This document shows positions 27,395 to 64,000 of a DNA stretch of 64,000 nucleotides, piece by piece (position 1 is the first letter of the stretch; each line of letters starts with the position of its first letter). The translations under genes and the position numbers were made by a program. The notes beneath the pieces are model-generated. The model saw only the letters and a list, made by a program, of their open reading frames with translations. It ran no database searches and was not told where the DNA came from. The DNA comes from Schmidtea nova. Taxonomy: Eukaryota. The stretch is from the NCBI GenBank assembly GCA_044892505.1, contig CM097883.1, positions 314,650,001 to 314,714,000 of the forward strand, written 5' to 3'.

Positions 27395-27490
27395 AATAAA
27401 ATAAATTTTTTCATCCAATAAAATCATTATAAAATATTAAAAAAATAATTAAGGCTACTATTTAGGATTAAGTAAATATAACGATAGAAA

Positions 27491-35186: not shown

Positions 35187-35690
35187 AGTAGGAGGATGTG
35201 TCAGGTCTGGATCCGTATGAGTTATCGCGCGTTTTTTGGCGCCATTTTTTAAGTGTGTTTTGTTTAAATGTTTGGATTTTTTTTTATTATTTTTATTTTA
35301 TTATTAAATTATTTCTTTTTTTTTATTTAAATAATTTTTTTTTATTAATTTATTTTAATTAGTTATTTATTTTTTTAAAAATATTATTAATTTACCTTTG
35401 TTAATATAATTTATTATTGTTCTTATTATTTTTCAACACCTTCAATGATAAACGTTCAATGAAAGCACTCATCAAAATATTATAAGCATATATCAAAATG
35501 AGACAATTCTGAACAACATAAAATTAGTTAATCAAATACGATAAATATTAAAATAATTATTTATTTTTATTAATATTACTATTATTTATATGACATAACC
35601 ATAGTTTCTAAAAATTATTACCCAAATTATAAAAACAGACTGAAACTAATCTGTACAATATATAACTAAATAATTAAAAAACAAAGTTCT

Positions 35691-38600: not shown

Positions 38601-39398
38601 TTTCACATCCTTGTATTTTAAAATAGCCAAGATGCTATATATAAAACACAAGTTATCTGTATTCTTTACATTGACAGTGCAATGTTTTGCATTTAATGAT
38701 GGAGGGGTTGAACAATAACCTTTACCGATCAATCTACTTATTTGGGAATATTTTGTAAGTTTAAAGCTTATTTCTTTAATTTTATTTATTGACCAATTGC
38801 TGCCATTTTCGCAGACTTTAGTCATTTTTTCGCTTAATAGAGCAATACCTTCATCTAAAAAGGTATCACTCATTGGTTTTGCGGAATTTGATATTATAAA
38901 AGATTGAAATTGCTTATTCTTTTCAAATTCTACATCAATACAAAAATGTACTTTTACATACCCCATTTTGGAAATAACTGAATTAAATTTATTTAATAAA
39001 GGCGAAGGAATAATTAATTTATTTAAATTTAAAGAATCTACATCCATTTTAACAATGGCATGGGATTTTTTCAAATTATATTTAACCAAAGGTTCAACAG
39101 AACCACCATATTGGACAACATGTAAATTAGGAATAACCAAAACATCGTCATTTGATGAATGGACATCTTCATCATCGGATATTACAATTACTTTAGCCGG
39201 TTTAGGACAAACAGTAACATTTCGTCGTTTACTTTTATTAATTAATGCGAAAAGAGTTTTCTTAGTACATGAGAATTGATCTAAATGGAGATAATGTTGG
39301 AAATAAAAATCAATGTAATTTATATGTTGGGCGCTCTTACATGTGGGACATAAATAGAAGGTGACTTGATTATTTATAAGACGATAGTATCGCTCCAT
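35691..39398 (-). pseudogene. polB: Protein-primed family B DNA polymerase, left arm (in-frame stops at 36924 and 36069)
   Basis: VYADFE exonuclease I, FHNLRGYD, CYLC..DHDHYTGKYLGAACSKCN endonuclease VII-like zinc insert, YIDINNLYG, KLLNNSLYGK, GDTDS, PKCY. Confidence 0.92.
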
Positions 39399-39689
39399 TA
39401 ACTTGTGGCAGTCGTTATGATTTGACGACTTACAATAATTCGCATAAAATTTACCTTAATATGAAATATCTTTAAATTTATCAAAGAATCATTAAAATAA
39501 ATTAATAAAAATATGAATTATTAGAAAATAAATATGAAATTTAAGATAAATATGATTTAAATATAATAATTACTAAAATAATTTAAATTTAATATAAAAA
39601 TTATTACAAAATAATATTAAAGGAATTTGTTTAAATTAACTGTTTACGTAAAGTAAAGATTATTTAAATTATTACAAAATATTATCAAA

Positions 39690-40071
39690 TTATATGTTTA
39701 CAAATATTTTACTATATTTATTTACTAAATTAATTAAAAGTTAATCAAATTAATTAAAATTAATCAATACTTACATTGGACATTCAATACCATGTCAGGT
39801 ATAACTCCATTATTCACAATATTCTCATTATTAACAATCTCAGCTTGTACGGTAGTTTGTTCAGTCATATTTACATCACCTAAAGTAAAAGTTAAATAAT
39901 TTACTAAGTTAATGATCAAGTACCATTTTCTTCCGCATTTTCTAACATCGATTTCCCAATTGAATTATTGATATTACCTAAATTAATATTAAATAATAAT
40001 AAATTAAAAATAAATTTACCATTCTCTTTTCCACTTGGGTTTTCATTCATAAAACTTGTTATAATGTTCAT
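39690..40071 (-). CDS. Mirror copy of the small 4-exon gene
   Basis: Reverse complement of 42716-43097; ATG at 40071. Confidence 0.5.
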
Positions 40072-40589
40072 TTTTAATGTTTATTATTTGTTAAAGTGAA
40101 TAATGAATGAAAAAGTATTGTTTATATATCAAAGTTATTACACACACATAACCTTTGACCAATAAAAATCGAGTAAGGGGTAGGAAATTTATTCTTATTA
40201 GCCAATCAGAATCGAGTAAGAGACAGTAAAGGTATTATTATCATCAAATAGAGAAATGATAGAGAATTATGACTAATTTTATATTACGTTGCAGTATTTT
40301 AAAAAACTAGAAAAGTTATTTCAACAAATTATAATACACATCAAAGTTATAAAATATTTCAATGAATTGCATGCATGTCATATGATTAAAATATATTAGA
40401 CTAAATATTTCAGTAAATTACATCTAAATTATATTACATTTCAATAATTACGTCAGTTATAAAAAATATTTTAATTAATTTTGATAAAATACATTAGAAT
40501 TGTCAATAACACACACAAAACTTTTATAATTTTCATTAGTATAGAAATTAAATTATATCTACACATGATTACAATAAATATTCGATAAA

Positions 40590-41200
40590 TCTATGCTAAA
40601 TAGTCGAAAAAATCAGTATTTTATTACAAAACACGTGTGCATCACAAACATATCGATATACTTAATTTTTAATAAAGCTATTTTGTAGGCAATTAAAATT
40701 TATCTATATGTAATTACAATGAAAACTCACTAAAGTTATTTTAAATAACTAAAACTTACAGAATTAATTACAAAACACGTGTGTAACACGAAAAACGACA
40801 ACTTTAAGATTTTATAATCAAGCCATTTTATAGGAAATTAAATTTTACATATACTTTATTACAATGAAAACTCACTAAGGTTACTTTATATTGTTAAAAA
40901 TTTGAAAATTCAAAATAAAACACGTGTGCATCACAAAATACGACAAATTTCAGAATTCTAATAAAGCCATTTTGTAGACAATTAAATTTTATTTATATAA
41001 TATTACAATGAAAACTCAAAAAAGTTATTTTGTTTAGGTGAAATATACTAATTTAATGACAAAACACGTGTGCACAACAATATACACAACATTTTGAATT
41101 TTTAATTCAGCCATTTTGTAGACAATAAAATTCTGTCTATCTATTGTTTCAATAAAAACTCGATCGGGCCGGTTTATCGACTCGAAAAAGGCGTTTGAAG
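40590..41200. repeat. Four ~144-bp tandem units, each with a CACGTG palindrome (mirror at ~41590-42200)
   Basis: CACGTG at 40632, 40776, 40921 and 41065 (spacing 144, 145, 144). Confidence 0.8.
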
Positions 41201-41206
41201 TCTTGT

Positions 41207-41580
41207 AGTAGGAGGTAGTGAGCGGTCTGCCGCCCCCCATGTGTGAACTCATATACTTTTTATTAAATTTCAAATATAATTTCATATTTAAAAAAAATTA
41301 AAACAAAAAATTCATATAATTAAAAAAATAGTCCATTTAATTAAAACAAAAATTCACTTAATTTAAACAAAAAATCACTTGGTTTAAACAAAAAATTCAA
41401 TAAATTTTAAAAATATATGAAATTACGTAATTATATATGAAATTACGTAATTATCGGGTTTTATTTAGCACGCTTGATTACGTAATGATTATGTTGTTAT
41501 GTGTGCTATGTAAAGTCCGAGCGATTACGTAATATACACACATGTGGGTAGTGGATCTGGACCGGACACTACCTCCTACT
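41207..41580. mobile_element. 374-bp mini-element with Polinton-type ends at the palindrome centre
   Basis: AGTAGGAGGTAGTG at 41207 and CACTACCTCCTACT ending at 41580. The inner right end (tccggtccagatcc) resembles the outer terminus (tcaggtctggatcc). Confidence 0.6.
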
Positions 41581-42715
41581 ACAAGACTTCAAACGCCTTT
41601 TTCGAGTCGATAAACCGGCCCGATCGAGTTTTTATTGAAACAATAGATAGACAGAATTTTATTGTCTACAAAATGGCTGAATTAAAAATTCAAAATGTTG
41701 TGTATATTGTTGTGCACACGTGTTTTGTCATTAAATTAGTATATTTCACCTAAATAAAATAACTTTTTTGAGTTTTCATTGTAATATTATATAAATAAAA
41801 TTTAATTGTCTACAAAATGGCTTTATTAGAATTCTGAAATTTGTCGTATTTTGTGATGCACACGTGTTTTATTTTGAATTTTCAAATTTTTAACAATATA
41901 AAGTAACCTTAGTGAGTTTTCATTGTAATAAAGTATATGTAAAATTTAATTTCCTATAAAATGGCTTGATTATAAAATCTTAAAGTTGTCGTTTTTCGTG
42001 TTACACACGTGTTTTGTAATTAATTCTGTAAGTTTTAGTTATTTAAAATAACTTTAGTGAGTTTTCATTGTAATTACATATAGATAAATTTTAATTGCCT
42101 ACAAAATAGCTTTATTAAAAATTAAGTTTATCGATATGTTTGTGATGCACACGTGTTTTGTAATAAAATACTGATTTTTTCGACTATTTAGCATAGATTT
42201 ATCGAATATTTATTGTAATCATGTGTAGATATAATTTAATTTCTATACTAATGAAAATTATAAAAGTTTTGTGTGTGTTATTGACAATTCTAATGTATTT
42301 TATCAAAATTAATTAAAATATTTTTTATAACTGACGTAATTATTGAAATGTAATATAATTTAGATGTAATTTACTGAAATATTTAGTCTAATATATTTTA
42401 ATCATATGACATGCATGCAATTCATTGAAATATTTTATAACTTTGATGTGTATTATAATTTGTTGAAATAACTTTTCTAGTTTTTTAAAATACTGCAACG
42501 TAATATAAAATTAGTCATAATTCTCTATCATTTCTCTATTTGATGATAATAATACCTTTACTGTCTCTTACTCGATTCTGATTGGCTAATAAGAATAAAT
42601 TTCCTACCCCTTACTCGATTTTTATTGGTCAAAGGTTATGTGTGTGTAATAACTTTGATATATAAACAATACTTTTTCATTCATTATTCACTTTAACAAA
42701 TAATAAACATTAAAA

Positions 42716-43097
42716 ATGAACATTATAACAAGTTTTATGAATGAAAACCCAAGTGGAAAAGAGAATGGTAAATTTATTTTTAATTTATTATTATTTAATA
42801 TTAATTTAGGTAATATCAATAATTCAATTGGGAAATCGATGTTAGAAAATGCGGAAGAAAATGGTACTTGATCATTAACTTAGTAAATTATTTAACTTTT
42901 ACTTTAGGTGATGTAAATATGACTGAACAAACTACCGTACAAGCTGAGATTGTTAATAATGAGAATATTGTGAATAATGGAGTTATACCTGACATGGTAT
43001 TGAATGTCCAATGTAAGTATTGATTAATTTTAATTAATTTGATTAACTTTTAATTAATTTAGTAAATAAATATAGTAAAATATTTGTAAACATATAA
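42716..43097 (+). CDS. Candidate small 4-exon acidic/Asn-rich gene upstream of polB (81 aa)
   Basis: Exons 42716-42767, 42810-42863, 42908-43012 and 43063-43097; GT-AG introns of 42, 44 and 50 nt, all phase 1, frame preserved. Two CCAAT-type repeats and a TATA-like sequence upstream (42570-42665). The last exon is the least certain. Confidence 0.55.
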
Positions 43098-43388
43098 TTT
43101 GATAATATTTTGTAATAATTTAAATAATCTTTACTTTACGTAAACAGTTAATTTAAACAAATTCCTTTAATATTATTTTGTAATAATTTTTATATTAAAT
43201 TTAAATTATTTTAGTAATTATTATATTTAAATCATATTTATCTTAAATTTCATATTTATTTTCTAATAATTCATATTTTTATTAATTTATTTTAATGATT
43301 TTTTGATAAATTTAAAGATATTTCATATTAAGGTAAATTTTATACGAATTATTGTAAGTCGTCAAATCATAACGACTGCCACAAGTTA

Positions 43389-46300
43389 ATGGAGCGATAC
43401 TATCGTCTTATAAATAATCAAGTCACCTTCTATTTATGTCCCACATGTAAGAGCGCCCAACATATAAATTACATTGATTTTTATTTCCAACATTATCTCC
43501 ATTTAGATCAATTCTCATGTACTAAGAAAACTCTTTTCGCATTAATTAATAAAAGTAAACGACGAAATGTTACTGTTTGTCCTAAACCGGCTAAAGTAAT
43601 TGTAATATCCGATGATGAAGATGTCCATTCATCAAATGACGATGTTTTAGTTATTCCTAATTTACATGTTGTCCAATATGGTGGTTCTGTTGAACCTTTG
43701 GTTAAATATAATTTGAAAAAATCCCATGCCATTGTTAAAATGGATGTAGATTCTTTAAATTTAAATAAATAAATTATTCCTTCGCCTTTATTAAATAAAT
43801 TTAATTCAGTTATTTCCAAAATGGGGTATGTAAAAGTACAATTTTGTATTGATGTAGAATTTGAAAAGAATAAGCAATTTCAATCTTTTATAATATCAAA
43901 TTCCGCAAAACCAATGAGTGATACCTTTTTAGATGAAGGTATTGCTCTATTAAGCGAAAAAATGACTAAAGTCTGCGAAAATGGCAGCAATTGGTCAATA
44001 AATAAAATTAAAGAAATAAGCTTTAAACTTACAAAATATTCCCAAATAAGTAGATTGATCGGTAAAGGTTATTGTTCAACCCCTCCATCATTAAATGCAA
44101 AACATTGCACTGTCAATGTAAAGAATACAGATAACTTGTGTTTTATATATAGCATCTTGGCTATTTTAAAATACAAGGATGTGAAATCTAATAGAAGTAA
44201 GTCTTATACTTATAATCCCTTAGACCTTGTGTTTGATCCTTCTGATTTTCCAATGAAATTATGTAATATACCCAAATTTGAAGCGAAAACCCCGGGGTTG
44301 GCAATAAATATTCTTTCATATGACGAGTATGATCTAAATTATATTACTGAGGAGGAAGAAGTCATGAAACATCCATTTGTAGATATTATTCATAGGTCAA
44401 AGGTTGTAGGTGGCACTCCAATTAATTTGATTTTGTTAGAGGAAAGTGACTCTTTTCATTATATTGCAGTTACCAATATTAATAGACTTTTAAATTGTGA
44501 CACTCTTTCTGTTACTGATGTTCAAATAAGGTGCACGTGGTGCGAGCGTTGCTTGAATGGTTTTAGATTGACTGAAGCTTTTGAGAAACATCAGGCTTTA
44601 TGCACAAAAAATCAGTTAGGTACAACTTTATACACTTTACCTTCAGATAAGAACTTGGAATTTAAAGATTGGTCAAAGATTGTTACCCCTCCTTTCGTTG
44701 TATATGCCGATTTTGAGGCTGTTTTGCCGAAGGACGATAAGTATTTTCAACGTCACTTGCCTATTTCTGCTGGCTTGTTGCTTATTAATAACTTTACCGG
44801 CGAAAAATCGTATAAAAGCTTTTATGGTCTTAACTGTGTAGAAGAGTTTTTGACTGAAATCAATGATATAGGAGAAAAAGTAGTTTTACCTTACTTTATA
44901 AATAATTCCAAAAGGAAAATGGAATATCTTTCTTCTGCACAAATAAGATCATTTCGTAGTTCTACAATTTGTTATTTATGTAATAAACCTTTGAAAAATC
45001 CGGTTAAAGATCATGACCATTATACAGGTAAATACTTGGGTGCAGCTTGCTCTAAATGCAATTTTTCTCGGCAAATAAGATTCATTATGCCAGTCATATT
45101 TCATAATTTACGCGGATATGATTTGCATCATATTCTCAAGTATGGTTTAAATAAATTCGTTAAATGGGATATAAGTTGTATTCCTACTACAAGTGAAAAG
45201 TTTTTGACTTTATATGCAAGAGTCGATAGTTTGACTATTAAATTTATCGATTCTTGCCAATTTGTAAGCTGTAGCTTAAACGATGCTGTAAAGACTTTAA
45301 CAGATTTTCGTCTTACTTCATCCGACTTTTTAGGGACTATTATTACATCCAAAGGCATATTCCCATATAATTTTGCAACTTCTTTAGAGGTTTTACAAAA
45401 TACATACGAGTTGCCACCGATTTGGGAAGGAGTTAAAATCGACGAGTATGAAAAAGCTCAACATATATGGGATGAATTTAATTGTGAAACATTGTTTGAT
45501 TATATGATGTTATACCTGAAATTGGATGTTTTCTTACTTGCCGACTTTTTTCAGCAATTTAGGGCAAAATCCATTGCACATAACCGACTTGAGCCTCTTA
45601 ATTTCTTGGGAATTCCAGGCATGTCATGGAATTCAGCTTTGATGACTTTGAAATCTCCTATCGAGTTGCTTCAAGATATGGAGATGTATAATTTTTTCGA
45701 AGGGGGGATCCGTGGTGGGTTAACATTTGTTAACATACACCATGTAATATCCTCCGACGACACTGAGCTTCTTTATATAGATATAAATAATTTATATGGG
45801 TGGGCTTTAAGCCAAAAACTACCTTATAAAGAATTTAAATGGGTAACTGATAGGGAAAAATGAAATAAAATAATTTATTACTGTGAATCTGCTGATTTAG
45901 AAGTATTAACATTTGGATTTACATTAGAAGTCGATTTAGAAATTCCTGATTCGATTCACGACAAGCTGGATGATTTGCCAGTTACCGCTGAAAAGATGTG
46001 TCCACCTGGCTCAAAGGTTGAGAAGTTGATGCTTACGCATTATCCCAAGAAGAACTATGTTCTTCATTGGAGACTTCTCAAACTTTTTCTTTCTCTTGGA
46101 GTAAAAATAACTCATGTCCATAGGGCAATTAAATTTAAACAAGCATGTATTTTTAAGGATTACATCGATACCAATACCAGACTTAGAGCAGAATCAAGTA
46201 ATGCTCTGGGTAAAAATTATTATAAATTATTAAATAATAGTCTCTACGGTAAAACCGTAGAGATTCTTAAAAAGCGCATAAATTTAAGATTATGTAATTC

Positions 46301-47096
46301 GGCTTCTAGGCTGATTACATATACTTCTAAGCCAACTTTTAAAAGGACTTTCGAAATTGACGGTGATTTGGTTGCCGTCTTGCTGAATCAGGAATCGGTG
46401 TGTTTGGATAGACCCAGCTACATTGGTCAAACTGTACTGGATCTATCTAAACTTAGAATGTACCAGCTGCAGTATGAAGAGTTACAAAAATATCGTAACG
46501 AATTCAACTGCGAAATTAACATCGTAGCTGGTGACACCGATTCGTTTTTTCTTGAGATTAGAAATTGTAAGCTTGATATTCTTTTACCGGCCATGATACG
46601 AGATAACTTACTTGACACTTCTAATTATGATCCGAATCACCCATTATATAGTAGGAACCTTGATTCTGTCATTGGCAAGTTCAAAGACAAGAATAAAGGG
46701 CTTAAATACGAGGAGTGGGTGTTTCTTAGACCTAAATGTTATAGTCTTTTAGGTGACGAGGAAACTAATAAAGCTAAGGGGGCAACATTAGCGGGTACTG
46801 ACATAAAGCATCAGTCGTACCTGGACTGTTTTAATAATAACCAAATATTTTCTGTTCCCCAAACGAGAATCACAAGTAAAAATCACCAACTTTTTACTAT
46901 TAAAAATGAAAAGACTGCACTGACAAACGCAGATGATAAAAGGAAATGGGTGTCGAAAAATAAAAGCTTGGCATATGGCCATTATATGGAAGGTGACTTG
47001 GTTATATTTCAACAAAACGATCCAAGAATCAATCCATATCACCAATTCCAAGATCAAACTGAAGAAGAAACAGTTTTATTAAATAAAATTTGTTGA
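43389..47096 (+). pseudogene. polB: Protein-primed family B DNA polymerase, right arm (in-frame stops at 43770 and 45861)
   Basis: Same motifs as the left arm; the three ORF-track pieces share one frame. Confidence 0.92.
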
Positions 47097-47607
47097 AGAA
47101 CTTTGTTTTTTAATTATTTAGTTATATATTGTACAGATTAGTTTCAGTCTGTTTTTATAATTTGGATAATAATTTTTAGAAACTATGGTTATGTCATATA
47201 AATAATAGTAATATTAATAAAAATAAATAATTATTTTAATATTTATCGTATTTGATTAACTAATTTTATGTTGTGCAGAATTGTCTCATTTTGATATATG
47301 CTTATAATATTTTGATGAGTGCTTTCATTGAACGTTTATCATTGAAGGTGTTGAAAAATAATAAGAACAATAATAAATTATATTAACAAAAGTAAATTAA
47401 TAATATTTTAAAAAAAATAAATAACTAATTAAAATAAATTAATAAAAAAAAATTATTTAAATAAAAAAAAAGAAATAATTTAATAATAAAATAAAAATAA
47501 TAAAAAAAAAATCCAAACATTTAAACAAAACACACTTAAAAAATGGCGCCAAAAAACGCGCGATAACTCATACGGATACAGACCTGACACATCCTCCTAC
47601 TATATTG

Positions 47608-54030: not shown

Positions 54031-54980
54031 ATCTAAATGACCGCAAATTGGAGTAATATAATAAAGTAAATTTATGAGAAATAAATTTTATTTTATAGTA
54101 GATTGTTCTTCTCAATGGAACTCTGTAATAAATGCCACGATTTTATACTTTTCGATTTGAAATAATTTGATCTGTTTTTGTAAATCCATCAAATTGTCTT
54201 AGTATTTTAGAACTTCATATTTCTCATATTTATTTATCCTAATATATAATAATTAAACTAAAATGAGAGTTCAACTACATAATTTCCACTGTAAGCCATT
54301 GACATTAAAGATTTCCTAATATTATACTAAAAAATATAATGATACAAAAGTTTATATCACATTTTTTACACCCCTGACATAGGGAATCGCACACCTCCAA
54401 TGTTTTATTCAAAACACTCTACCCCCTCCCTCCCCTCCCCCCACACACACATCCAATGAAAGTGTAAATATACTTGTAATAAAAAATCTTTACAGAAATG
54501 CCAAAATAACGTGCTGGGTTCATGGAGGGGTTAGATGAAAAATGCTCTAACAATGACTAGGGATCCCTCATCCATGATCATGCATAAAATTGCAATCTTA
54601 CACTCAAGCGCCCTTGATTATTTCCCTATATAATCAAGTTGGTGATGCGCAGGGTGGTTAAACAATGATGGGCAGGCGAGCACTATCGCTAGTACTACTC
54701 CCCATTTATGTTTACGGGTTCATTGCTGCCGTTAGAAGGACTTATGCTTTAATCATTTGCTTAGGTATTCCGCAATAATCTTTTAGAAAATTTATTTTTA
54801 ACATTGCGTATTCTGCGAGAAGTGTTTAAATCAAAATGCTCGCTTAATTATTTATTTGCCTTTGCTAGATAATTTGTGATATGAATTTATACTTTTATAC
54901 TATATTGATCTAATTATTCGTCAATTTACCAAATCAATTTAAAGGAACAATAAACTTTTTAAGATAACACAAAATTTTAT

Positions 54981-55577
54981 TTAATTTTTAGTTAGTTCTG
55001 TAAAAACTCCAGCTGGAGGAAAAATCTCCGTCAATAATTCCTCTTCAGTCAACTGGTGTAGACCATCTACTTGACTCTGTAATCGCTGGGCGAATAATTT
55101 CCTCTGTCTTCGCCGTTTCTGCCCAATGCGCTTGCGTTTTTGGTGCGCGTTTGCCGTTGAGGTGGATGGAATTATTGCTGAAACCGGCTCATTCCGACTT
55201 TCGATTAGATCGGCGACATCCGTGCCAATGGAATTTACAGTCCTCTTTTCTGATGTCCAAGCTTGATACGTAACCGGACGGATTTGCTCTCTGAGTTCTT
55301 TCTCAATATATGAGGCAGTTACGGAATGGAGGCATTTTCGGAGTTCTAACTTTGTAGCCTCCCATTCCATTTGGTAATCGGCTGCAGTCTGCTGGGCGCG
55401 CTCGGTTTTACTGATTTGCTCCTTCATTCTGGCCGGAGCAAACCAGCTTTTGCGCAAGTATGCAATCTGTGCCTCGGCTTTGATCAATTGTGCCTTGAGG
55501 AGACCCACTTCCTTGTCCTGGGCTCTCCGGATCCGCCACATCTTTTCCAATTCTCTCTGTATCAAATCGGTGGTCAT
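54981..55577 (-). CDS. Hypothetical coiled-coil protein with basic NLS-like stretch (198 aa)
   Basis: ATG-started ORF with a heptad-rich N-terminus and KRKRIGQKRRRQRK; TAG acceptor 1 nt before the ATG. Confidence 0.6.
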   Translation of the reverse strand: MTTDLIQRELEKMWRIRRAQDKEVGLLKAQLIKAEAQIAYLRKSWFAPARMKEQISKTERAQQTAADYQMEWEATKLELRKCLHSVTASYIEKELREQIRPVTYQAWTSEKRTVNSIGTDVADLIESRNEPVSAIIPSTSTANAHQKRKRIGQKRRRQRKLFAQRLQSQVDGLHQLTEEELLTEIFPPAGVFTELTKN

Positions 55578-55762
55578 TCTATAATTTATTTACGATATTC
55601 ACTTTATAATGCAATTATATGAAAAATTGAAATCTGATTATAGGATTATTAGGTTACGAATACGAACTATTAAAAACACAAAACCAAAACTCAAAACAAC
55701 AAAATAAAAACACCGCTGAACATTAATATTTGAACACAATTTAAACATTTGACAATCAGTTT

Positions 55763-56242
55763 TTATCTCCGAAACAAGCTATGTAATTCGCTGTTAATCG
55801 GCCTCCGACGAAGACGGGCCCAAGAGAATGAGGGTTGTCCTCTCTGGCACTCCTTGCCGAACGGTTTTCGTGGTAGAAATTCGTGTAGGCCTAGTTGACA
55901 TAGTTCCCGACGAGGGATGTGCCCCCAATAAATTATATGGCTTGTTCGTCCCTCGGTGTTCCTGACTAATACGATCATTCGGCCAAACTTATTGGAGTAC
56001 GGCCTTTGGGAAATCGGCCAGTTCGGTCCTCCTCGATAGAGTATTTGGTCGTTCCCTCCTGTCCATATCGAGAACGGGCATTTTCGGCCAAACCCATGTC
56101 GCCACTTATACATCTGGCAGTTGAGGGTTCGCAAGATCGATGCCGGTAGATCCTTGAGCTGCGAGATCTTTCCATTTTGCCTATTCCCTTGTTCCACTTT
56201 CCGTAGGTGAGTTAATTGATTCATAAGTTCGGCTGTCGACAT
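55763..56242 (-). CDS. Hypothetical basic protein (159 aa)
   Basis: ATG-started ORF in a GC-richer block; TAG immediately before the ATG and TATAAAT at 56310-56304. Confidence 0.5.
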   Translation of the reverse strand: MSTAELMNQLTHLRKVEQGNRQNGKISQLKDLPASILRTLNCQMYKWRHGFGRKCPFSIWTGGNDQILYRGGPNWPISQRPYSNKFGRMIVLVRNTEGRTSHIIYWGHIPRRELCQLGLHEFLPRKPFGKECQRGQPSFSWARLRRRPINSELHSLFRR

Positions 56243-57848
56243 CTATATTACATTTATTGGATATAAAATATATGAGTTAACGGAGGGAATTTGTGGATAA
56301 ATCATTTATACTGCCTATAATCACAAAAGTTACTTAAAAATAAGATTAATTTTATTTCTCTCCGCCGTGATCTACCACGGTCGGAATAAAGAGTTCATAA
56401 TTAGTCCTGTGCTATATACAGCATTCAGGAATTATCAAATTTAATCAAGATTTCCGCGCTATATACAGCGATCGGAGAATAACTTGGGAAACCGCGCCAT
56501 ATACGACGATCGGTCTATTTTTAGTAACTAATTTAATTTAACTTGGATTTTCCGACGCATTCCAATGCGATCGGAATTTATCGATATTATAATTTTGTAG
56601 GCGAGATGCTGATTCCGAATGAAATCGGACTTTAGACTACGATGAATTTTCTCATTTCAGCGAAATTATTCAAATTTATTTTATTTGTTGCTCACTGTTT
56701 CTCCATGCGGGAGGTTCCATTACGATTCAATTGACTAAAAATTCAAATGATGAGTACGCCCTACCATGGGGGGTCCCTCCTTATCAATCCGCCCTCCGCA
56801 ATCTCCCTATTTGGCCCTCGACCCTCGTCCGTTGTGCAACCCAGAATTAAATAATTAGTAAATGGTTTGTACTAGATCAAAAATTCAATCAGATTTCTAA
56901 ATAAAATTCCACATCTAAACTAAATACTAAAAAGGTTGAACCGCCATGTGAGACCCTGAGGCCCCACAACGACGACTCGGACTCCCTCGCCGCGTGAGCA
57001 GCATAGGAAGTATAACTATATGCATCAAAATATCAATAAAATAACGTTAACATATAAAATTTTAATTGAATAAAAATCATGGGTACATCATATAAGATAA
57101 ATATAAAAATTTACTTCCGTACTTGAATGTGTGGTTCCTTGTATGAAATTCTGTTTTTCAAAAAATCTCGTTTTGTTCAATGAAATATTACTTAAATCAA
57201 AGTTTAGTCTTGATTGTAAGTGAAAAGTAAAAACGTCCCTTGTTGTGATTTTTGGATCGGTATTTATACTGATCCGTCTGGTTGGATTGACCAATCAGGA
57301 TCAGGCCGTCCTTCAAAGTATTTTTATTATTTTATTCTAATCTAAACATTATTTTGTTTTCCTTTTCCGGTTTCTCGCTGGGTGGTCCTGATTTTTCAAA
57401 TAATTAATTAATTATTTGCACTATTATTTTATTTAATTCTATCTTTGTCTTATTTCAGGCCCCCTTTTGCTGTTGTTTACCGGTTTATTTTCCAAATTTC
57501 CTTTTACTGAAAATTTATCAAATATTATTTGTCGTTTTATTGTTATTTTTAATTTGTTTTTCTTGTTATTTTTATGTTTATTATTTTCTTATTGTTTTGT
57601 GTTTTTGCTCTTTTATTGTGTTTTTAGGTGATTTGGCGGGCCCAACATCACCCGGGGACCCCTAAAATTGCGTCCCGCAATTAAGTATACATAAATACTT
57701 ATTTTCATCATACATAAAAAGTTTTATAGACTTATACATGCAAAGAAAAATCACATAAGGTGATCGAATTTATACATATCATACAATTGTCATTCATTAG
57801 TCAAAATGTAATAATTTGTCACAATAGTTCGATAAGTTATCATAAAGT

Positions 57849-58418
57849 TTATACAATTTGTTCGATCGTCTGGCTCGCTTGGGGTTGAGTTCGGGTCCTC
57901 TCGTTGATTATTTGTAGCTCGTAGTGGGTTTGGATGTGGTTGAGGTGGCTCCTTATTCGTCTTTGAGCTCGGTTATCTCGTCTGGAGGTTTGGTTGTAGA
58001 TTTTCTGCTTTTGTTTTAGGATCTTTATTCTATATGAGGCAATTAGGATTGTGATTGCGATGATAGTTGTGCTGATTGCTAGGATTATGATGATTGCTAT
58101 GATCCATTTTTCTTGATATTCTATTTCAGCTTGGGATAGGCTTTTTATGGGCTCTCTACCTTCTTTCAGGATTTTTCGGGTTTCTTTTAATTTCAGTTGT
58201 TGGTTACCGCAGATTTGTTGGATTTGATGATCTTGATTGTAGGGGTATTTCTGTCGGAATTCGTTGATTTCTTTAATTACTTCTTCGATTAGGCTGTCTA
58301 CTCTCTGGTAGATTTTGTCGGGTAGAACTCGTAATTGGGTTTCGGTTAGTTGTAGATCTTCTCTCTGTAGGGTAATGGTTGTTAACCATAGGAGTGTTGC
58401 TATTGCGAGCTTTCTCAT
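57849..58418 (-). CDS. Hypothetical type I membrane protein
   Basis: The first ATG gives MRKLAIATLLWLTTITLQ (signal-like), then a helical ectodomain, TM WIIAIIIILAISTTIIAITILIA and a basic tail. Confidence 0.7.
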   Translation of the reverse strand: MRKLAIATLLWLTTITLQREDLQLTETQLRVLPDKIYQRVDSLIEEVIKEINEFRQKYPYNQDHQIQQICGNQQLKLKETRKILKEGREPIKSLSQAEIEYQEKWIIAIIIILAISTTIIAITILIASYRIKILKQKQKIYNQTSRRDNRAQRRIRSHLNHIQTHYELQIINERTRTQPQASQTIEQIV

Positions 58419-58493
58419 CTCTTTTATACATCGGTCAATACAGCTTGACACTTTTTATTTTACATAATTTATTTACACTTGGTTTTCGCACAT

Positions 58494-59555
58494 TTATACA
58501 AGGGTTTCGTTGGGTTCGTGAAAACCTTCGTCTTGAGGTTCCACCTGATTTATGGGGAGTGGCATCCATATTACCGTGCTCCTCCACATTTCGACTTCTT
58601 CTCGGTATGTGTGGGATATCTGGATCTCTTCATCTAATAAGTATTCCAGATAGTTCGCTTGTTCTGTTAGGGTTTCAATTTGTTTTTCTAGTTCTGCCAA
58701 TTTTTTCTCTCTCTCTTCCTTCTCCATCATTTCGGTCACTGCTGCTGTGATACTTGTTTCTTTTATTGGTGTTGGTTTTTCTGCCAACTTCTTTCTCAGT
58801 TCTTCGTTTTCTTTTGTCAAATTTGTTATGTTCTCTTCATAACTCTGCCTCGTTTCTTCCAGTCTTTCTTTAGTTCTTTTTAATTCTATTTTCTTCTGGG
58901 TGATCACTCCTTGATATCCATTTATGTCTCTTTTCATGTTTTCTTCCTTGTGATTCCACATTCCGGTCAGCATACCTTTTAATTGTTCTTGATTGGCTAA
59001 ATCTTCTCCCATTCTTCGTACTTGATAAGTTAATTCTTTAATTTTCTTGGCTTGTTCTCTGATAAATTGTTGTCTTTTCTTACTCCATACTTTATTTGAT
59101 GCTTCTTGACTGATCTTTTGCCCTAATTCCTCTTTTAATTCATCGACCTCTTTAAACAGTTTCCAATCATCGCTGTATGCTGTTCGTTCTATTATCTCCC
59201 TTGCTTCCTTGTAAGAGTCTTTTGCCTCTTTCTTCCAATATCTTGCTTGTTCTGTGATTGACTGAATCTTATGGTCTGTTTTTATTTGTTGTCTATCCCT
59301 ATCCTCTCGTCGCTCTTTCATCATCTCTTTGTAGTATTCGTTTTGTTGTCTTAGCAGTTTGTAGACTTCTTCTATTTTTTCTCGACTTCTTTGATTCGTT
59401 TTCTCGGCTTCTCTTAGTGCTTGGGTTTGTCTTTCCAATTCCTCCTGTTTTCGATAATAGGCATGAATCCATATCCCAATCCGCTCCATGTGATTTCTGA
59501 TCATTTCGTCTTGATGTACTGTTACTTCTTGTAAGGTTACTTCTATATTTCCCAT
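58494..59555 (-). CDS. Hypothetical long coiled-coil protein (353 aa)
   Basis: Uninterrupted E/K/Q/R-rich heptad ORF. Confidence 0.75.
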   Translation of the reverse strand: MGNIEVTLQEVTVHQDEMIRNHMERIGIWIHAYYRKQEELERQTQALREAEKTNQRSREKIEEVYKLLRQQNEYYKEMMKERREDRDRQQIKTDHKIQSITEQARYWKKEAKDSYKEAREIIERTAYSDDWKLFKEVDELKEELGQKISQEASNKVWSKKRQQFIREQAKKIKELTYQVRRMGEDLANQEQLKGMLTGMWNHKEENMKRDINGYQGVITQKKIELKRTKERLEETRQSYEENITNLTKENEELRKKLAEKPTPIKETSITAAVTEMMEKEEREKKLAELEKQIETLTEQANYLEYLLDEEIQISHTYREEVEMWRSTVIWMPLPINQVEPQDEGFHEPNETLV

Positions 59556-59740
59556 TTCTATAATTACAGATAAAAAGAATATTTAATCATTTTTTATTTT
59601 TATTGTTTTTGATTATTTGTTAATTCATATTGTTTCTATACATTTTATTTACATGGTTACTTCCTTCATTACGCCAACCATCCTTTTCTGTCTGTTTTCT
59701 CATGCCTCTCCATCTCTATGTATAGCGTGTCTGCATATAG

Positions 59741-61045
59741 TCACTCCCATAGGTTTTCTTTCCTTATAAACATTGGTTCTCCTGCTGCTAGTCCGCATTC
59801 TGTTGTTGGTTTTTCGCTCGTACTCGTATGTTTGTCTGTTTCAAAGAACTTTTCTACTGGTTTTCCCATACTTTTGATTCTTATAATGACTCCTACTTTC
59901 AAGGGCCATTCTATTAGGTCATCGTATTCTCCTTTACATAGTGAGAAGAATATTGACACGTGTGTTCCTTGTCCTCTTCCGTCTCCATTTGGGTATACTT
60001 TCAATCTTATTTTAACCCCGTTTTTCCATAAATAAAATGGTGGGCTTATTACTGCTGTTTTCGTCATATTTCTGGCTTCTGCTAGTTTGTCTCTGAAATC
60101 TGTTACTTTCCATAGGTAAGGTGCGATTGGTAAGTCCCTTCTTTCGTCAATTTCTCGTATTAATTGATTATATTGTATTTTCATTCCTTTTCCTAATTCT
60201 TCTATGGCTATTATTTTCTTTTCCATTCTTTCGCGGGTTAGTTCAAACAGCTCTCTTGTTTCTAGTAGTAAACTCATCATTATCTTATGTGATTCTACTT
60301 CTTTTTCTAATTTCTGGATTGTCTGTTCCGTTTCTTTTGTCGTTTCGTTTGTCATTTCCACATGCGTTAGTGCTGCTTCTTCTAGGTGTTGTTTCATTGA
60401 TTGCCGCGTCCGCTTTTCTTTGCATCCCTGTTTGTTATATGGACATTCTCTTGGTCTTTCGGTACATACTTTCCAATGTTCATGTAACTTTACTTCTTCT
60501 GTTATTTCGCAATTGTTTGGACATTTACTTACATATTGTCTGCATACTTTCTCCTCTGTTATATTCAAGTGTTCCTCTTCGATTTTTCTCCTCGTTTCTC
60601 GAGTTTCACAATACTCGCATGCGATTTCTTCTTCTTTACATTCTTCCTTGTGTTGTTCTCTCTTCTTTAGAGTTATTGTCTGTTGGCATTTCTCGCATTC
60701 GGCTCTCTTTTCCTCGCATTTTTCCATATGGTTTTCCAGATTACTTATTTGTCCTTGCCATGTACAAGGTGTATTTACGCACTCCGTTGTGGTGCTCATA
60801 ATTTCTCTTTGGGTTGCTTTGTCCGTTCTGGTTTCGTCCAACACTATTCTTCCTTCCTTACATTCTGGGCATGTTGTTATTCCTGTTGCATCTAATTCTT
60901 GTATACATTTTGTACATATTCTACATCCACATATCGTTTGTCTGGGTTCTCGTAGTAAATTATTACATTTCCCGCAGGTGAGCCTCTTGCTCCATTTTCT
61001 GTTTTCTAGTCTCAAAATCTCGATTATTCGTTCTTCTCTGTCCAT
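59741..61045 (-). CDS. TRAF: Intronless TRAF-family protein (RING, TRAF zinc fingers, coiled coil, MATH)
   Basis: RING CGKC..CGCRICTKC..CPEC; zinc fingers with CPNNC and CPYNKQGC; MATH YLWKV..SPPFY..KVYPNGDGRGQGTHVSIF..GEYDDLIEWP. Confidence 0.9.
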   Translation of the reverse strand: MDREERIIEILRLENRKWSKRLTCGKCNNLLREPRQTICGCRICTKCIQELDATGITTCPECKEGRIVLDETRTDKATQREIMSTTTECVNTPCTWQGQISNLENHMEKCEEKRAECEKCQQTITLKKREQHKEECKEEEIACEYCETRETRRKIEEEHLNITEEKVCRQYVSKCPNNCEITEEVKLHEHWKVCTERPRECPYNKQGCKEKRTRQSMKQHLEEAALTHVEMTNETTKETEQTIQKLEKEVESHKIMMSLLLETRELFELTRERMEKKIIAIEELGKGMKIQYNQLIREIDERRDLPIAPYLWKVTDFRDKLAEARNMTKTAVISPPFYLWKNGVKIRLKVYPNGDGRGQGTHVSIFFSLCKGEYDDLIEWPLKVGVIIRIKSMGKPVEKFFETDKHTSTSEKPTTECGLAAGEPMFIRKENLWE

Positions 61046-61138
61046 TCTCTACAATAATATATACATTCGACTTGTCATTTATTTTTTGGTTTTTCTTGTT
61101 TTTATTTTTACATATTTACAATTTTCCGCTTTATTTAT

Positions 61139-61495
61139 CTATGGCTCATTCGTTGAATCTGGTTCCGCTTCGTTGTTTAGTCTATTTATTACCCAACTCA
61201 TCCATCCTTCTTCGGATTCTTCTCTTTCTCCTCGTGTTAAATGGTTTATTTCTATTGCTTGTCTTTGATTGATATTGCTTATATTTTGATTTTCTCTGGT
61301 GAGCTCGGTTATCGCTCTTTGTTGTTCTTCTATTCTGTGTAATTGTTCGAAACAGTTGTTATAACTTTCTGATAATAACATTTGTCTTTCCGCTAATTGG
61401 TTCTGTAATGAGTTGACTGTTCGTACTAATAAATCACATTGTGCCTTCCATCTCATAGCCATAGTTATTTCAGTTGTTTCGTCCTGTTCGGTCAT
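61139..61495 (-). CDS. Hypothetical small coiled-coil protein (118 aa)
   Basis: ATG-started ORF with the same codon bias as its neighbours. Confidence 0.65.
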   Translation of the reverse strand: MTEQDETTEITMAMRWKAQCDLLVRTVNSLQNQLAERQMLLSESYNNCFEQLHRIEEQQRAITELTRENQNISNINQRQAIEINHLTRGEREESEEGWMSWVINRLNNEAEPDSTNEP

Positions 61496-61620
61496 TTTCT
61501 AAATTATATACATCATTTACTTTGCTTTTCTAGCTTTTTACAATTTTTATAATATCGATACCCATACTATTACGGTAATGCTTTGTTATTTACACTATTA
61601 TTTACAGTCATAATCCGCCC

Positions 61621-64000
61621 CTATACCATCATTATCGTCTTTTCCTCGTATCGTTCTTCGTCTTCTATTTGTTTCCAGAATTCTTTACCTTTCGTTCTTC
61701 TTTGGAATTCTTGCTGTATCTCTTCTGGTATTTCTATTCTTTGCTTCATAATTTTAATATCTGGCCATTGTATGGCTGTCGCTTTGTTTCTCTTTCTGTA
61801 TCTCCAATATATTATCATGCTTGTCGTCATTATCCCATATGCTATTAATATTCCTATACTGATTAATCCTATTACTGTTTTTCCACGGTTTGTTGCTTTG
61901 ATTTTATTCTGATTCGCTTTTATCTCATTTTGGGTTTGAGCCTCTGGCTTCTTCTCCTTCTGTACTTGATTCTTGACTTTGTTCATTACTTCTTGTGTAG
62001 ACCAATGGCGATTTAGTAGTTGTTTGACGTTATTTTCTTTTGTTCGGTTTTCCACGTTTCTTGGTTCGATCTGTTGTTGTAGTTTCTCTGAGATCTGATA
62101 TAATCCGCATTCTGGTTTTTCTGAACCTTTTCTAGTGAAGGTACATATCGCGTATGTCTTATTTACTTCCATTTTCTTTAATTCGACTTTTTCCTTATTC
62201 CCTGTTTCTTTACAGTGGGTTAGGTTGTCTTCTTCTCCTTCTGGGTTATGCTTTGTCCAACATATTCCTTTCACTGTTTGATCGAGTCCTGTTAATGTCA
62301 GAGTTCTTTCTGTTTTGGTTAACTCTTCTTCGTCGAATTTCAGTATTTCTCCTTTTTGAAATGTCTTACAATGCTCTATTCCCTCTTGGATTCCTTTCTC
62401 CCAGATACATATACTTCCTTCTTCATTCATTTGTATTTCTTGTATTTCGATTTCCTTGTTTGTTTGTGATTCGTCGCTTGTCTGAACTTGGTATTCCTTC
62501 CTTGGTTCGTTGTATGTTCCCCAGCATAGTTTGTTGCTGCTTGTTTTTCTTATTGTTATGGCCATTTGTTCTATTATTATTCCTCTGTCAAAACGTTTGG
62601 ACATTGCTATTATTAACGCTATGCATACGCACTCTTGTTGGGGTGATGTTCTTTCTCTCGTGTTATTGGTGCTTTTCTCCCCTTCTCCTGGTTTATCCGT
62701 TGTGTTTCTTATCTGAGTTGCTGGTTGATCTATGGTGTTTTTGATTTCTTTCTTTGTTGGTTTTACTCTATACCATTCGAGTCTAGGCGTTTCGTATTTT
62801 TGACATACTACTGTCTTAGGTAGCCCCGACTTCTTTTCCTTTCCTATTATGCATATTCGATGCATGATTCCTCTATCCATCCCTTCTATTCGTACTATAT
62901 CCTGGTCGGATTTTCTGATTATGCATTTTAGTGGGTTATCTTTCCCAATTGGTTCATCCTCTCTATTCCAGCATATTTTCTCGACCTCCTGGACATTTAC
63001 TATTTTTATCCCTGCTTGTAGGTTTGTTGCTTCTTCCCTATTGATTAATGTCAATATTATTGTTAGACCCAACCATTTTGAACTCTGCGGTAGGCTTCTG
63101 GTTCGCCTTTCATATTTTTTCTCTTCGCCTTTAATCTCTTTTATTTCCTTGTCTTTGTTGTTTATTCCTAGTTTTCCGCTTTTCGCTTCTTTCTTATTTG
63201 GTTCTTCTCGTGCTTTTTCTTCTAGTATTTCTACTCCATGGCTTGTATTATCTATATTTAGCCATTGGGTTGTTGATTTTCTTGGGCTTATCTTGCGTAT
63301 CCATATAGCTGATAGCGCGATTATTACTGGTATGGTTGCTGTTAATATTCCTAAGCCGATTAGCTCTTTAATTTCTTTATTCTCGTCTGTTTGTATAGGT
63401 TCGCTTTGGTTGAACATTATTCCGTATTGTCCCTTTAGTTTTCTCATTAATTGTTCTCGTTCCTCTTGCTTTCTTTTGACTTCTTTGATAACTTCTTCGG
63501 GTGTCCATTTTGCTTGAGGGTCGGTTATTGTTTTTTCTGCGTCCATTTGTTCATTCGTTTGGCTTAGTTCCCTGAATTCGAGTTTCCTTGTTATTCCTTT
63601 TGATGTTGCGTTCGCTGGTGTATAGTAGGTTTCGCATCTTTCTTGTTGGTTTCCTAGTGCGTCCGTTTTTTCTATTGTACATACTTCATACTCGCTATTA
63701 AATTGTAGTTTTTCGATCTTGATTTCTTTATTTGTTTTTCTGCACTCTCTTGATTGTCTTCTTATATGTTTCTGAACTATTATCCAACATATTTCTAATG
63801 TTTTATTCTCTATTTTCCATAATGTTAGAGTTGCTGATGTCTTTCTCTCGGGTTTTGTCGTAACTTCCTGGCTTATTGGTTGTTTATTGTTTTTAAAGGT
63901 AGTGGTGTACTTCGATTTTCCTTTGTTTCGTTGTTTCCTTTTATTTTTCCGTGTTAACGTTTTGGTTCTTATTCCGGATGAAGTTGTATGTATTCCGCAT
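61621..64000 (-). CDS. Large membrane protein or polyprotein with at least 4 Cys-containing FN3-like repeats and several hydrophobic segments; 5' end outside the window
   Basis: By manual translation the frame is open from 64000 to 61621. Repeats have the pattern (I/L)CW...C...(I/V)xxLxxNxxYx(V/I)C...C; the C-terminal TM is followed by RYRKR. Confidence 0.75.
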   Translation of the reverse strand, partial: CGIHTTSSGIRTKTLTRKNKRKQRNKGKSKYTTTFKNNKQPISQEVTTKPERKTSATLTLWKIENKTLEICWIIVQKHIRRQSRECRKTNKEIKIEKLQFNSEYEVCTIEKTDALGNQQERCETYYTPANATSKGITRKLEFRELSQTNEQMDAEKTITDPQAKWTPEEVIKEVKRKQEEREQLMRKLKGQYGIMFNQSEPIQTDENKEIKELIGLGILTATIPVIIALSAIWIRKISPRKSTTQWLNIDNTSHGVEILEEKAREEPNKKEAKSGKLGINNKDKEIKEIKGEEKKYERRTRSLPQSSKWLGLTIILTLINREEATNLQAGIKIVNVQEVEKICWNREDEPIGKDNPLKCIIRKSDQDIVRIEGMDRGIMHRICIIGKEKKSGLPKTVVCQKYETPRLEWYRVKPTKKEIKNTIDQPATQIRNTTDKPGEGEKSTNNTRERTSPQQECVCIALIIAMSKRFDRGIIIEQMAITIRKTSSNKLCWGTYNEPRKEYQVQTSDESQTNKEIEIQEIQMNEEGSICIWEKGIQEGIEHCKTFQKGEILKFDEEELTKTERTLTLTGLDQTVKGICWTKHNPEGEEDNLTHCKETGNKEKVELKKMEVNKTYAICTFTRKGSEKPECGLYQISEKLQQQIEPRNVENRTKENNVKQLLNRHWSTQEVMNKVKNQVQKEKKPEAQTQNEIKANQNKIKATNRGKTVIGLISIGILIAYGIMTTSMIIYWRYRKRNKATAIQWPDIKIMKQRIEIPEEIQQEFQRRTKGKEFWKQIEDEERYEEKTIMMV

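What the first reader, a model, noticed from the sequence alone, without database searches (positions are those of the whole stretch)
54124..64000. Large virus-like/LTR element carrying a cassette of immune-signalling-like accessory genes
Seven co-oriented, intronless, apparently intact ORFs are packed with ~75-185 nt gaps within two blocks on an A-rich coding strand. This contrasts with the decayed TEs and short-intron genes elsewhere in the window. The cassette includes a full TRAF, an FN3-like multi-TM protein, a type I membrane protein and coiled-coil proteins, and it ends in PPT/LTR-like signals. Strong A bias on the coding strand is typical of retroelement genomes. Inference: this is the 3' accessory region of a giant Ty3/Gypsy-type element or endogenous virus that encodes modulators of host NF-kB/TNF-type signalling. 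Giant Gypsy elements (Burro) are described in planarians, but I cannot tell whether this is one of them.
Basis: partly seen in the sequence, partly recalled or inferred. Interest (0 to 1): 0.88.

Follow-up and report, generated by a model that had tools for sequence, protein, structure and literature searches.

The report
Giant Burro retrotransposon carrying TRAF cassette
This stretch is the tail end of a young, 30-kb jumping gene present in at least 150 copies that carries its own copy of the cell-signalling gene TRAF and other extra genes kept working by selection, which it likely uses to keep its host cell alive; it is a variant of the Burro elements already known from flatworms.

Summary
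The region is the 3' third of a 29,693-bp LTR retrotransposon: 3,136-bp LTRs 99.8% identical, 4-bp target duplication, tRNA-Pro primer site, and at least 150 near-identical TRAF copies. Its polyprotein runs Gag, BCL-2-like, Env, protease, RT, RNase H, integrase, ankyrin. That is the published planarian Burro layout.

Corrections: the element starts at 54512, not 54124. Two ORFs lie inside the LTR. The 'FN3 multi-TM protein' is the polyprotein's tail (seven FN3-like repeats). This copy's TRAF and Gag carry premature stops.

All six separate ORFs are under purifying selection (dN/dS 0.09-0.32). Unlike Burro1, this family lacks the BIR-RING IAP and carries a full RING-TRAF as its own 3' gene. A sister family in the same genome has both. 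Splice-acceptor-like YAGs just before 6 of 7 accessory start codons, and UGUA/AAUAAA signals after the stops, suggest operon-like processing; no RNA data tested this. Modulation of TNF/NF-kB or apoptosis signalling is inferred from homology only.

Verdict: new variant of a known kind.

The parts
54508..54511 (.). Target-site duplication AACG; repeated at G000:C2:314734205-314734208 beyond the 5' LTR
   Evidence: 4-bp duplications also flank two sister-family copies
54512..57647 (-). 3' LTR, 3,136 bp, TG...CA; 7 mismatches to the 5' LTR (G000:C2:314731069-314734204)
54981..55577 (-). LTR ORF198: coiled-coil-like N-half and an Arg/Lys-rich motif; no Pfam match; under purifying selection; function unknown (a Tat/Rev-like regulator is a guess)
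   Evidence: dN/dS 0.20 versus a family copy; pN/pS 0.09 shared variants
55763..56242 (-). LTR ORF159: orphan small protein; fastest-changing ORF (39-96% identity among family copies); under purifying selection
   Evidence: (dN/dS 0.26)
57263..57295 (-). Predicted LTR promoter: ATTGG (CCAAT box) and TATAAA 27 nt apart, kept in the other LTR types examined; implies both LTR ORFs lie downstream of the start site
   Evidence: own, F59 and L098 exact; F71 has ATTGG plus TATATA; start site inferred, not mapped
57648..57669 (-). G-rich motif at the plus-strand primer (PPT) position, directly before the 3' LTR; not a pure purine run
   Evidence: found with at most one change in 25 of 26 copies
57849..58418 (-). 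ORF189: predicted type I membrane protein with signal-like N-terminus, helical ectodomain, one TM segment and basic tail
   Evidence: (dN/dS 0.25-0.32); no Pfam match above cut-off
58494..59555 (-). ORF353: coiled-coil-like protein with a conserved acidic C-terminus (DEGFxE...ETxV)
   Evidence: dN/dS 0.09-0.15; full length in 26 of 26
59741..61045 (-). TRAF: RING, TRAF zinc fingers, coiled coil, TRAF-C/MATH, closest to TRAF2/3/5 type; this copy is truncated (434 aa; family length 458 aa, which would end at 59669)
   Evidence: (dN/dS 0.15-0.18)
61139..61495 (-). ORF118: coiled-coil-like protein with an invariant C-terminal EPDST
   Evidence: (dN/dS 0.09-0.18)
61621..64000 (-). C-terminal 792 aa of the ~5,490-aa polyprotein: four of seven FN3-like repeats, two TM segments, internal signal-like segments and a cytoplasmic tail. 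Upstream, beyond the window: Gag, CCHC knuckles, UBL-like, BCL-2-like, Env, PR, RT, RNase H, integrase, ankyrin

Best explanation
The region is the 3' third of a young, multicopy 29.7-kb Burro-type Ty3/Gypsy retrotransposon whose extra genes (a TRAF likely captured from the host, FN3 membrane modules, coiled-coil and LTR-encoded proteins) are kept by purifying selection and likely serve to damp death and immune signalling in the cell where the element replicates. Shown: the element's structure, copy number, domain content and selection on each ORF. Inferred steps: (1) transcription starts at the CCAAT/TATA promoter about 400 nt into the 5' LTR; (2) full-length RNA gives the Gag-Env-Pol polyprotein, cut by the element's protease and by host signal peptidase, which would release Env and the FN3 modules to membranes; (3) the downstream ORFs are each made into their own mRNA by cleavage/polyadenylation after one ORF and splicing to the YAG just before the next ATG, probably by spliced-leader trans-splicing as in flatworm operons, with cis-splicing from an LTR donor as the alternative; (4) the RING-TRAF, RING153, BCL-2-like and ankyrin products act on TRAF/IAP ubiquitin signalling and apoptosis in the role that B-IAP is reported to fill for Burro1; (5) reverse transcription is primed by tRNA-Pro and integration makes 4-bp duplications. 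The window's own copy is a recent insertion with two premature stops and would need products from other copies.
For: LTR pair, TSD, PBS. Pfam Env PF24664 E 2e-70, RT E 2e-37, RNase H, integrase, ankyrin, CCHC. An uninterrupted 5,488-5,491-aa frame in 4 of 5 other copies read. 150 of 150 scored TRAF matches at 96% or more identity, 117 in a stop-free 459-codon frame (counted by eye). dN/dS 0.09-0.32 for the cassette against a sister family, and pN/pS 0.06-0.20 for shared and 0.14-0.50 for single variants within the family. The same cassette order in three sister elements, and BIR-RING IAP between TRAF and the coiled-coil gene in a further sister. Element MATH domains form one clade, 98/96, including an in-polyprotein MATH of Burro1-like layout. 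YAG within 5 nt of the ATG in 6 of 7 accessory ORFs versus 110 of 622 other ATGs (p 2e-4), and 7 of 9 in the distant IAP family. TGTAAA(T/A) at 19.5 per kb in the four gaps versus 0.24 per kb in the polyprotein.
Against: ORF189 of this copy has no YAG within 5 nt. Of 46 starts in six elements, 14 lack one (4 of these are gag), and the elements are related, so counts are not independent. No canonical TRAF-binding motif (recalled consensus) lies in the cytoplasmic tails of ORF189 or the polyprotein; one AREE sits in the internal loop. The family has no BIR domain, so Burro1's tested anti-apoptotic gene is absent. Its BCL-2-like segment has no Pfam hit on its own and only weak support. Selection shows that the ORFs matter, not what they do. 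Host TRAF genes here are themselves often single long frames, so lack of introns does not show retro-capture, and the placement among host TRAFs has only 88/81 support.
Confidence: 0.72

Rival explanations
1. Same element, but the accessory proteins serve the element's own particle cycle (assembly, budding, cell-to-cell spread, receptor or superinfection interference through FN3 and ORF189, RNA export or transactivation through the LTR ORFs) rather than host death or immune signalling; it is then an infectious endogenous retrovirus-like element.
For: An in-frame fusion glycoprotein under strong selection (dN/dS 0.07; PF24664). Signal-like and TM segments in the polyprotein tail. Basic Arg-rich motif in ORF198. 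PMC6431247 section 7 proposes that Burro elements are proviruses.
Against: TRAF, RING, BCL-2-like, ankyrin and, in the sister family, BIR domains all point to ubiquitin/apoptosis signalling. The two sister elements read that lack gag, env, RT and integrase still keep open accessory ORFs. The two roles are not exclusive.
Confidence: 0.18
2. The accessory ORFs are kept mainly by selection on the host (a mutualism, as reported for Burro1 B-IAP in stem cells), not by benefit to each element lineage.
For: A report that Burro1's B-IAP protects stem cells (seen only as cited in PMC13465017). A gag/pol-less, IAP- and TRAF-bearing sister type accounts for 13 of 20 sampled PBS sites, with 1,295 BIR candidates genome-wide.
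Against: With hundreds of redundant copies, host selection on any single copy is weak. Low pN/pS even among single-copy variants fits selection during replication of many active lineages. This family lacks the IAP.
Confidence: 0.08
3. A host gene cluster, or neutral captured host DNA riding in a transposon.
For: The host has its own large, partly intronless TRAF/MATH family.
Against: The cassette lies between LTRs in dispersed copies, shows purifying selection, and element TRAFs form their own clade.
Confidence: 0.02

Closest known systems
Burro1/GYPSM1 and Burro-2 to -4 of Schmidtea mediterranea (as described in PMC6431247 section 7, read in full)
   Same: About 30 kb; Ty3/Gypsy; one ORF of about 5,000 aa with Gag and CCHC knuckles, UBL-like, BCL-2-like, Env in frame between gag and protease, PR-RT-RH-IN, ankyrin; TRAF/MATH and coiled-coil (Smc-like) cargo; separate accessory ORFs; high copy number.
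   Different: TRAF is a full RING-TRAF in its own 3' ORF, not a MATH inside ORF1. No BIR/IAP. The polyprotein ends in two FN3/TM modules (seven repeats). Two selected ORFs lie inside the LTR. These are not mentioned in that section, but I could not read Grohme 2018 or Lee 2026, so this family may correspond to Burro-2, -3 or -4 or be covered there.
Burro-like element of Dugesia tigrina (PMC6431247 section 7)
   Same: 5,140-aa ORF1 without MATH, with MATH/TRAF-C in a separate accessory ORF.
   Different: There the accessory ORF is described as upstream; here the TRAF is downstream, and the upstream ORF is a RING-only protein.
Burro1 B-IAP mutualism (Lee et al. 2026 Dev Cell; seen only as cited in PMC13465017)
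   Same: An element-borne ubiquitin/apoptosis regulator; a BIR-RING ORF exists in a sister family of this genome.
   Different: This family has no BIR, and no function has been tested here.
C. elegans Cer1 (PMC3315495, passages read)
   Same: A Gypsy element whose subgenomic mRNA can carry a trans-spliced SL1 leader while the full-length RNA skips the sites: a precedent for the proposed processing.
   Different: One spliced mRNA in Cer1; here up to seven acceptor-preceded cistrons are predicted, with no RNA evidence yet.
Complex retroviruses with LTR or 3' accessory genes (HIV nef, MMTV sag, foamy and epsilon retroviruses; recalled, except fish foamy-like ERVs mentioned in PMC6431247)
   Same: Extra ORFs near or inside the LTR that may act on host signalling.
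   Different: Ty3/Gypsy-type layout with a mononegavirus-like fusion protein inside the polyprotein; the LTR ORFs lie downstream of the predicted promoter, not in U3.

Membership tests
Ty3/Gypsy LTR retrotransposon | Paired LTRs with TG...CA ends, TSD, PBS | tested here: met
Ty3/Gypsy LTR retrotransposon | Domain order PR-RT-RNase H-integrase | tested here: met
Burro | About 30 kb total, internal region up to about 25 kb | tested here: met
   29,693 bp total, 23,421 bp internal
Burro | Single polyprotein of about 5,000 aa beginning with Gag and CCHC knuckles | tested here: met
   5,488-5,491 aa in 4 of 5 other copies; interrupted by one stop in the window's copy
Burro | Env/fusion glycoprotein in frame between gag and protease | tested here: met
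   PF24664 E 1.8e-70 before the protease
Burro | Ankyrin repeats | tested here: met
   Ank_2 E 2.5e-12 after the integrase
Burro | MATH/TRAF-C domain, in ORF1 or in an accessory ORF | tested here: met
   one clade (98/96) with an in-polyprotein MATH of a sister family
Burro | BCL-2-like domain before env | tested here: inconclusive
   No Pfam hit; PDB BCL-2 at E 1.3; 28% identity, E 0.013, to a Pfam-positive BCL-2 segment at the same position in a related 13.9-kb element
Burro | Ubiquitin/SUMO-like domain before BCL-2 | tested here: inconclusive
   No Pfam hit for three candidate segments; the 42%-identical segment of a sister element hits Rad60-SLD at E 0.025
Burro | dUTPase-like segment between PR and RT | tested here: inconclusive
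   A segment of fitting size is present and conserved (dN/dS 0.05); no Pfam hit
Burro1 specifically | BIR-RING IAP gene | tested here: not met
   The sister IAP query finds only the RING of the upstream ORF in 8 of 8 elements searched, including 4 of this family; no Pfam BIR in the ORFs scanned
Burro1 specifically | MATH inside ORF1 | tested here: not met
   None in the polyprotein; present in another family of this genome
Burro | RT phylogeny with the published Burro-1 to -4 sequences | not testable with these tools
   Those sequences are not held; Grohme 2018 and Lee 2026 were not available
TRAF (TRAF2/3/5 type) | RING, TRAF zinc fingers, coiled coil, TRAF-C | tested here: met
   the RING is below Pfam cut-off but aligns to TRAF6/5/2 RING structures at E 3e-12 to 1e-9
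Fibronectin type III domain | Beta-sandwich fold of about 90 aa | tested here: met
   Model pLDDT 76; Foldseek top rows are FN3, best E 1.2e-3; VIA Z 8.1, rmsd 5.3, 82 aligned, and Z 7.9, rmsd 3.1, 76 aligned; 8 of 9 profile hits scanned carry fn3
SL-resolved operon | SL-bearing mRNAs at downstream cistrons | not testable with these tools
   Only sequence signals; spacing is under the 300-bp threshold used in PMC12582326

The most novel reading that the evidence does not exclude
An env-bearing, potentially infectious giant retroelement that runs its accessory genes as a eukaryotic operon resolved by the host's spliced-leader machinery. It encodes a TNF-receptor-pathway jamming kit (full RING-TRAF, FN3 decoy-like membrane proteins, RING, BCL-2-like, ankyrin) and swaps LTR-encoded regulators between subfamilies, while gag/pol-less satellites that keep only the kit outnumber the autonomous elements.
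Probability: 0.3. Interest if true: 0.75.

Novelty: new variant of a known kind. Interest (0 to 1): 0.45.

Why it matters
Burro elements are the main case of a retrotransposon with a poxvirus-like load of apoptosis and ubiquitin genes, and one of them is reported to help host stem cells. This family lacks that tested gene yet keeps every other accessory ORF under strong selection, so IAP is not the whole story, and TRAF becomes the next candidate. If the operon-like signals are real, they explain how a single LTR promoter can drive eight or more genes, which is directly testable with existing RNA methods. More than a thousand element-borne MATH and BIR candidates also bear on counts of 'expanded' TRAF families in such genomes.

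Tried and rejected
A first tRNA pattern found nothing because its spacing was wrong; the corrected one worked.

Expression: no RNA holder listed. The four runs of unknown kind were contigs covering genes and gaps alike and showed no joint or loose end at the predicted acceptors among the rows printed; this says nothing on expression.

ORF159: no Pfam; Atlas hits at most 0.79, primase-N-like, lead only; 0 of 4 candidates scored; AlphaFold pLDDT 45.5, so no fold search was run. BCL-2-like segment: no Atlas hit. TRAF trimer with ORF118: no answer, score 0.00. A sequence search of PDB with the FN3 profile gave only a ribosomal protein at E 0.32, and Pfam on the 20 repeats gave only weak fn3-type hits.

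Papers not held: Grohme 2018 and Lee 2026; their text and supplements may already describe this layout. Searches for prior descriptions found only PMC6431247 for Burro structure. Earlier scan findings: nothing in three look-ups. No RT tree was built, since no published Burro RT was held.
Full report
Observation. Strand bias is strong from 58 kb on. The coding strand is 45.5% A in the accessory block and 43.9% in the polyprotein but 35% in the LTR. Pfam finds MATH and TRAF zinc fingers in the 434-aa protein and nothing above cut-off in the other six.

The element. Neighbouring stretches show a 3,136-bp direct repeat at window 54512-57647 and again 26.6 kb further on, with 7 mismatches, TG...CA ends and AACG on both flanks: 29,693 bp in all. 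Six bases inside the 5' LTR end lies an 18-nt match to the 3' end of tRNA-Pro(TGG). The long frame is the end of a polyprotein with CCHC knuckles, a Monjiviricetes-type fusion protein (E 1.8e-70), protease, RT, RNase H, integrase and ankyrin repeats. In 4 of 5 other copies read it is one frame of 5,488-5,491 aa; the window's copy has one stop after codon 405, a TRAF 24 aa short, and a shortened upstream RING ORF. The 198- and 159-aa ORFs are part of both LTRs.

Copy number and age. The TRAF DNA gave 562 candidates, and 40 of 40 scored were 98% or more identical. The MATH protein query gave 150 of 150 scored at 96% or more, 117 of them in a stop-free 459-codon frame by my count; these are lower bounds. 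An 18-mer at the LTR start has 358 exact matches against 0 for the reversed control. LTR pairs of the six copies read are 99.8-100% identical over the parts held, so the family has moved very recently.

The polyprotein tail. It holds seven related repeats in two modules (four and three), separated by signal-like and TM segments; sister families have one module. A model of one repeat (pLDDT 76) matched FN3 domains throughout the top of Foldseek (best E 1.2e-3, none under 1e-3) and VIA (Z 8.1), scores that are only middling alone. Independently, a profile of 20 repeats found 155 proteins at E 0.001 or better, and 8 of 9 that I scanned carry fn3. The FN3 call stands. That signal peptidase frees these modules is inference.

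Selection. Against sister element F59, dN/dS (Nei-Gojobori) is 0.32 for ORF189, 0.09 for ORF353, 0.15 for TRAF, 0.09 for ORF118, 0.21 for the first FN3 module and 0.07 for Env; against a family copy it is 0.20 for ORF198 and 0.26 for ORF159; some distant pairs are saturated. In 26 family copies (20 picked from minus-strand rows, so biased to intact TRAFs, plus 6 earlier ones), full-length ORFs were 20 of 23, 12 of 24, 21 of 26, 26 of 26, 24 of 26 and 25 of 25 for ORF198, 159, 189, 353, TRAF and 118. pN/pS was 0.06-0.20 for shared and 0.14-0.50 for single variants. Many ORF159 'misses' are a second LTR type (166 aa, 39-44% identical) joined to a 95-98% identical cassette, that is, LTR swapping.

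The clan. The PBS 20-mer has 2,935 matches. Of 20 sampled, 1 was this family, 3 were close sisters, 13 a distant type and 3 had no matching ORF. Three sisters read in full keep the order ORF118-TRAF-ORF353-ORF189. Two elements of the distant type lack gag, env, RT and integrase but keep open accessory ORFs; one has a BIR-RING IAP (BIR E 5e-16) between TRAF and the coiled-coil gene, and frames of its length dominate the 150 BIR matches scored of 1,295 candidates. This family and its close sisters have no BIR. Another family carries MATH inside a 4,706-codon frame next to a UBL-like segment, the Burro1 layout (only 3 kb read). In a tree of 35 MATH domains (44 collected, 9 identical dropped, P0005 left out, midpoint root) the 5 element domains form one clade (98/96), placed with 8 non-element TRAFs of this genome at 88/81. 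One capture from the host is the simplest reading but is not shown; several host TRAFs are single long frames too.

How the genes could be expressed. A CCAAT box and TATA lie 353 and 380 nt into the LTR and recur in the other LTR types. A YAG ends within 5 nt of the ATG in 6 of 7 accessory ORFs, versus 110 of 622 other ATGs (p 1.8e-4) or 70 of 774 gap positions (p 3.5e-6); in the distant family it is 7 of 9; overall 32 of 46 related starts. TGTAAA(T/A) occurs 8 times in 410 nt of gaps versus 4 in 16,467 nt of polyprotein, and AATAAA lies in three of the four gaps; reading these as 3'-end signals rests on my knowledge. Stop, 3'-end signals, acceptor, ATG within 75-185 nt is the shape of a trans-spliced operon. 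SL trans-splicing is reported in S. mediterranea, and flatworm operons are called at 300 bp or less (PMC12582326, passages); Cer1 gives a Gypsy precedent (PMC3315495, passages). Cis-splicing from the LTR fits as well.

Comparison and novelty. PMC6431247 section 7 (read whole) describes Burro with Gag, MATH, UBL, BCL-2, in-frame Env, dUTPase-like, ankyrin, BIR and Smc motifs, and suggests meddling with apoptosis and ubiquitination. Burro1's IAP role I saw only as cited in PMC13465017 (passages). BURRO1 silencing by PIWI (PMC8532177), TRAF expansion (PMC6109357), Gypsy expansion in Schmidtea (PMC11410931) and a passing mention in PMC13238120 were seen as passages. Not found in what I could read: the separate full-length 3' TRAF without IAP, the FN3/TM tail, selected ORFs inside the LTR, LTR swapping, gag/pol-less cassette carriers and the operon-like signals. 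The two main papers were not available, which limits that claim.

Verdict. Real; a Burro-type element, not Burro1; new variant of a known kind; interest 0.45. Structure and selection are shown; RNA processing and host targets are inferred.

Noticed in passing
L087-L094 (G000:C1:2.83-2.86 Mb and 10.22-10.25 Mb): Elements with near-identical LTRs but no gag, env, RT or integrase; they keep protease, ankyrin, one FN3 and open accessory ORFs (TRAF plus BIR-RING IAP in one, a 482-aa membrane protein instead in the other). This type was 13 of 20 sampled PBS sites.
   Followed up: partly
L128-L131 (G000:C1:411007190-411021078): A 13.9-kb Gypsy with 1,085-bp LTRs and one 3,038-aa ORF: Gag, BCL-2 (Pfam-positive), Env, PR, RT, RH, IN, then one FN3-like segment and a TM. 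It looks like a minimal version of the Burro polyprotein; many BCL-2 matches lie in frames of this size.
   Followed up: partly
L162 (G000:C1:97579801-97582800): Family with MATH inside a 4,706-codon frame, homologous to this polyprotein's N-terminal part at 31-49%: the Burro1-like layout.
   Followed up: partly
L003, upstream of the gag ATG: The gag frame is open for 116-197 codons before the first ATG in all families, with conserved SNSSxNKENQ and DSGI motifs; a non-AUG start or an upstream exon is possible.
   Followed up: partly
window 58494-58550 and 61139-61170: Conserved C-terminal motifs: DEGFxE...ETxV in ORF353 (recalls a beta-TrCP degron mimic and a PDZ ligand) and EPDST in ORF118 (recalls a MATH-binding degron). 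The resemblances are recalled and untested.
   Followed up: no
L098, L099, L110-L113, L115: Copies with a 95-98% identical TRAF but a different LTR (ORF159 39-44%, ORF198 57-58%): LTR swapping between subfamilies.
   Followed up: partly
G000:C2:405-455 Mb (L132-L161): Dense cluster of non-element TRAF/MATH genes; several full TRAFs are single frames of 390-490 aa.
   Followed up: partly
G000:C1:459.61-459.65 Mb (L023): Tandem tRNA-Pro(TGG) array with a 308-bp period; 1,113 pattern matches genome-wide.
   Followed up: no
P0161-P0170: Ten proteins from other assemblies (nine unnamed ENA records) with Env in frame before protease or Pol (Env 35-39%, RT 51-58% identical), without the ankyrin or FN3 parts: the env-in-polyprotein layout is wider than this genome.
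   Followed up: partly
window 35258-47529: 5,970-nt inverted repeat, 99% complementary, holding protein-primed PolB-like ORFs (endonuclease VII and DNA_pol_B_2 hits): Polinton-like DNA in a palindrome.
   Followed up: no
window 24033-27561: 1,650-nt perfect inverted repeat over RT-like frames that recall a Penelope element (recalled, not searched).
   Followed up: no
window 2161-6673: Small broken Gypsy-like element with 118-nt direct repeats, 99% identical, and gag/pol fragments.
   Followed up: no
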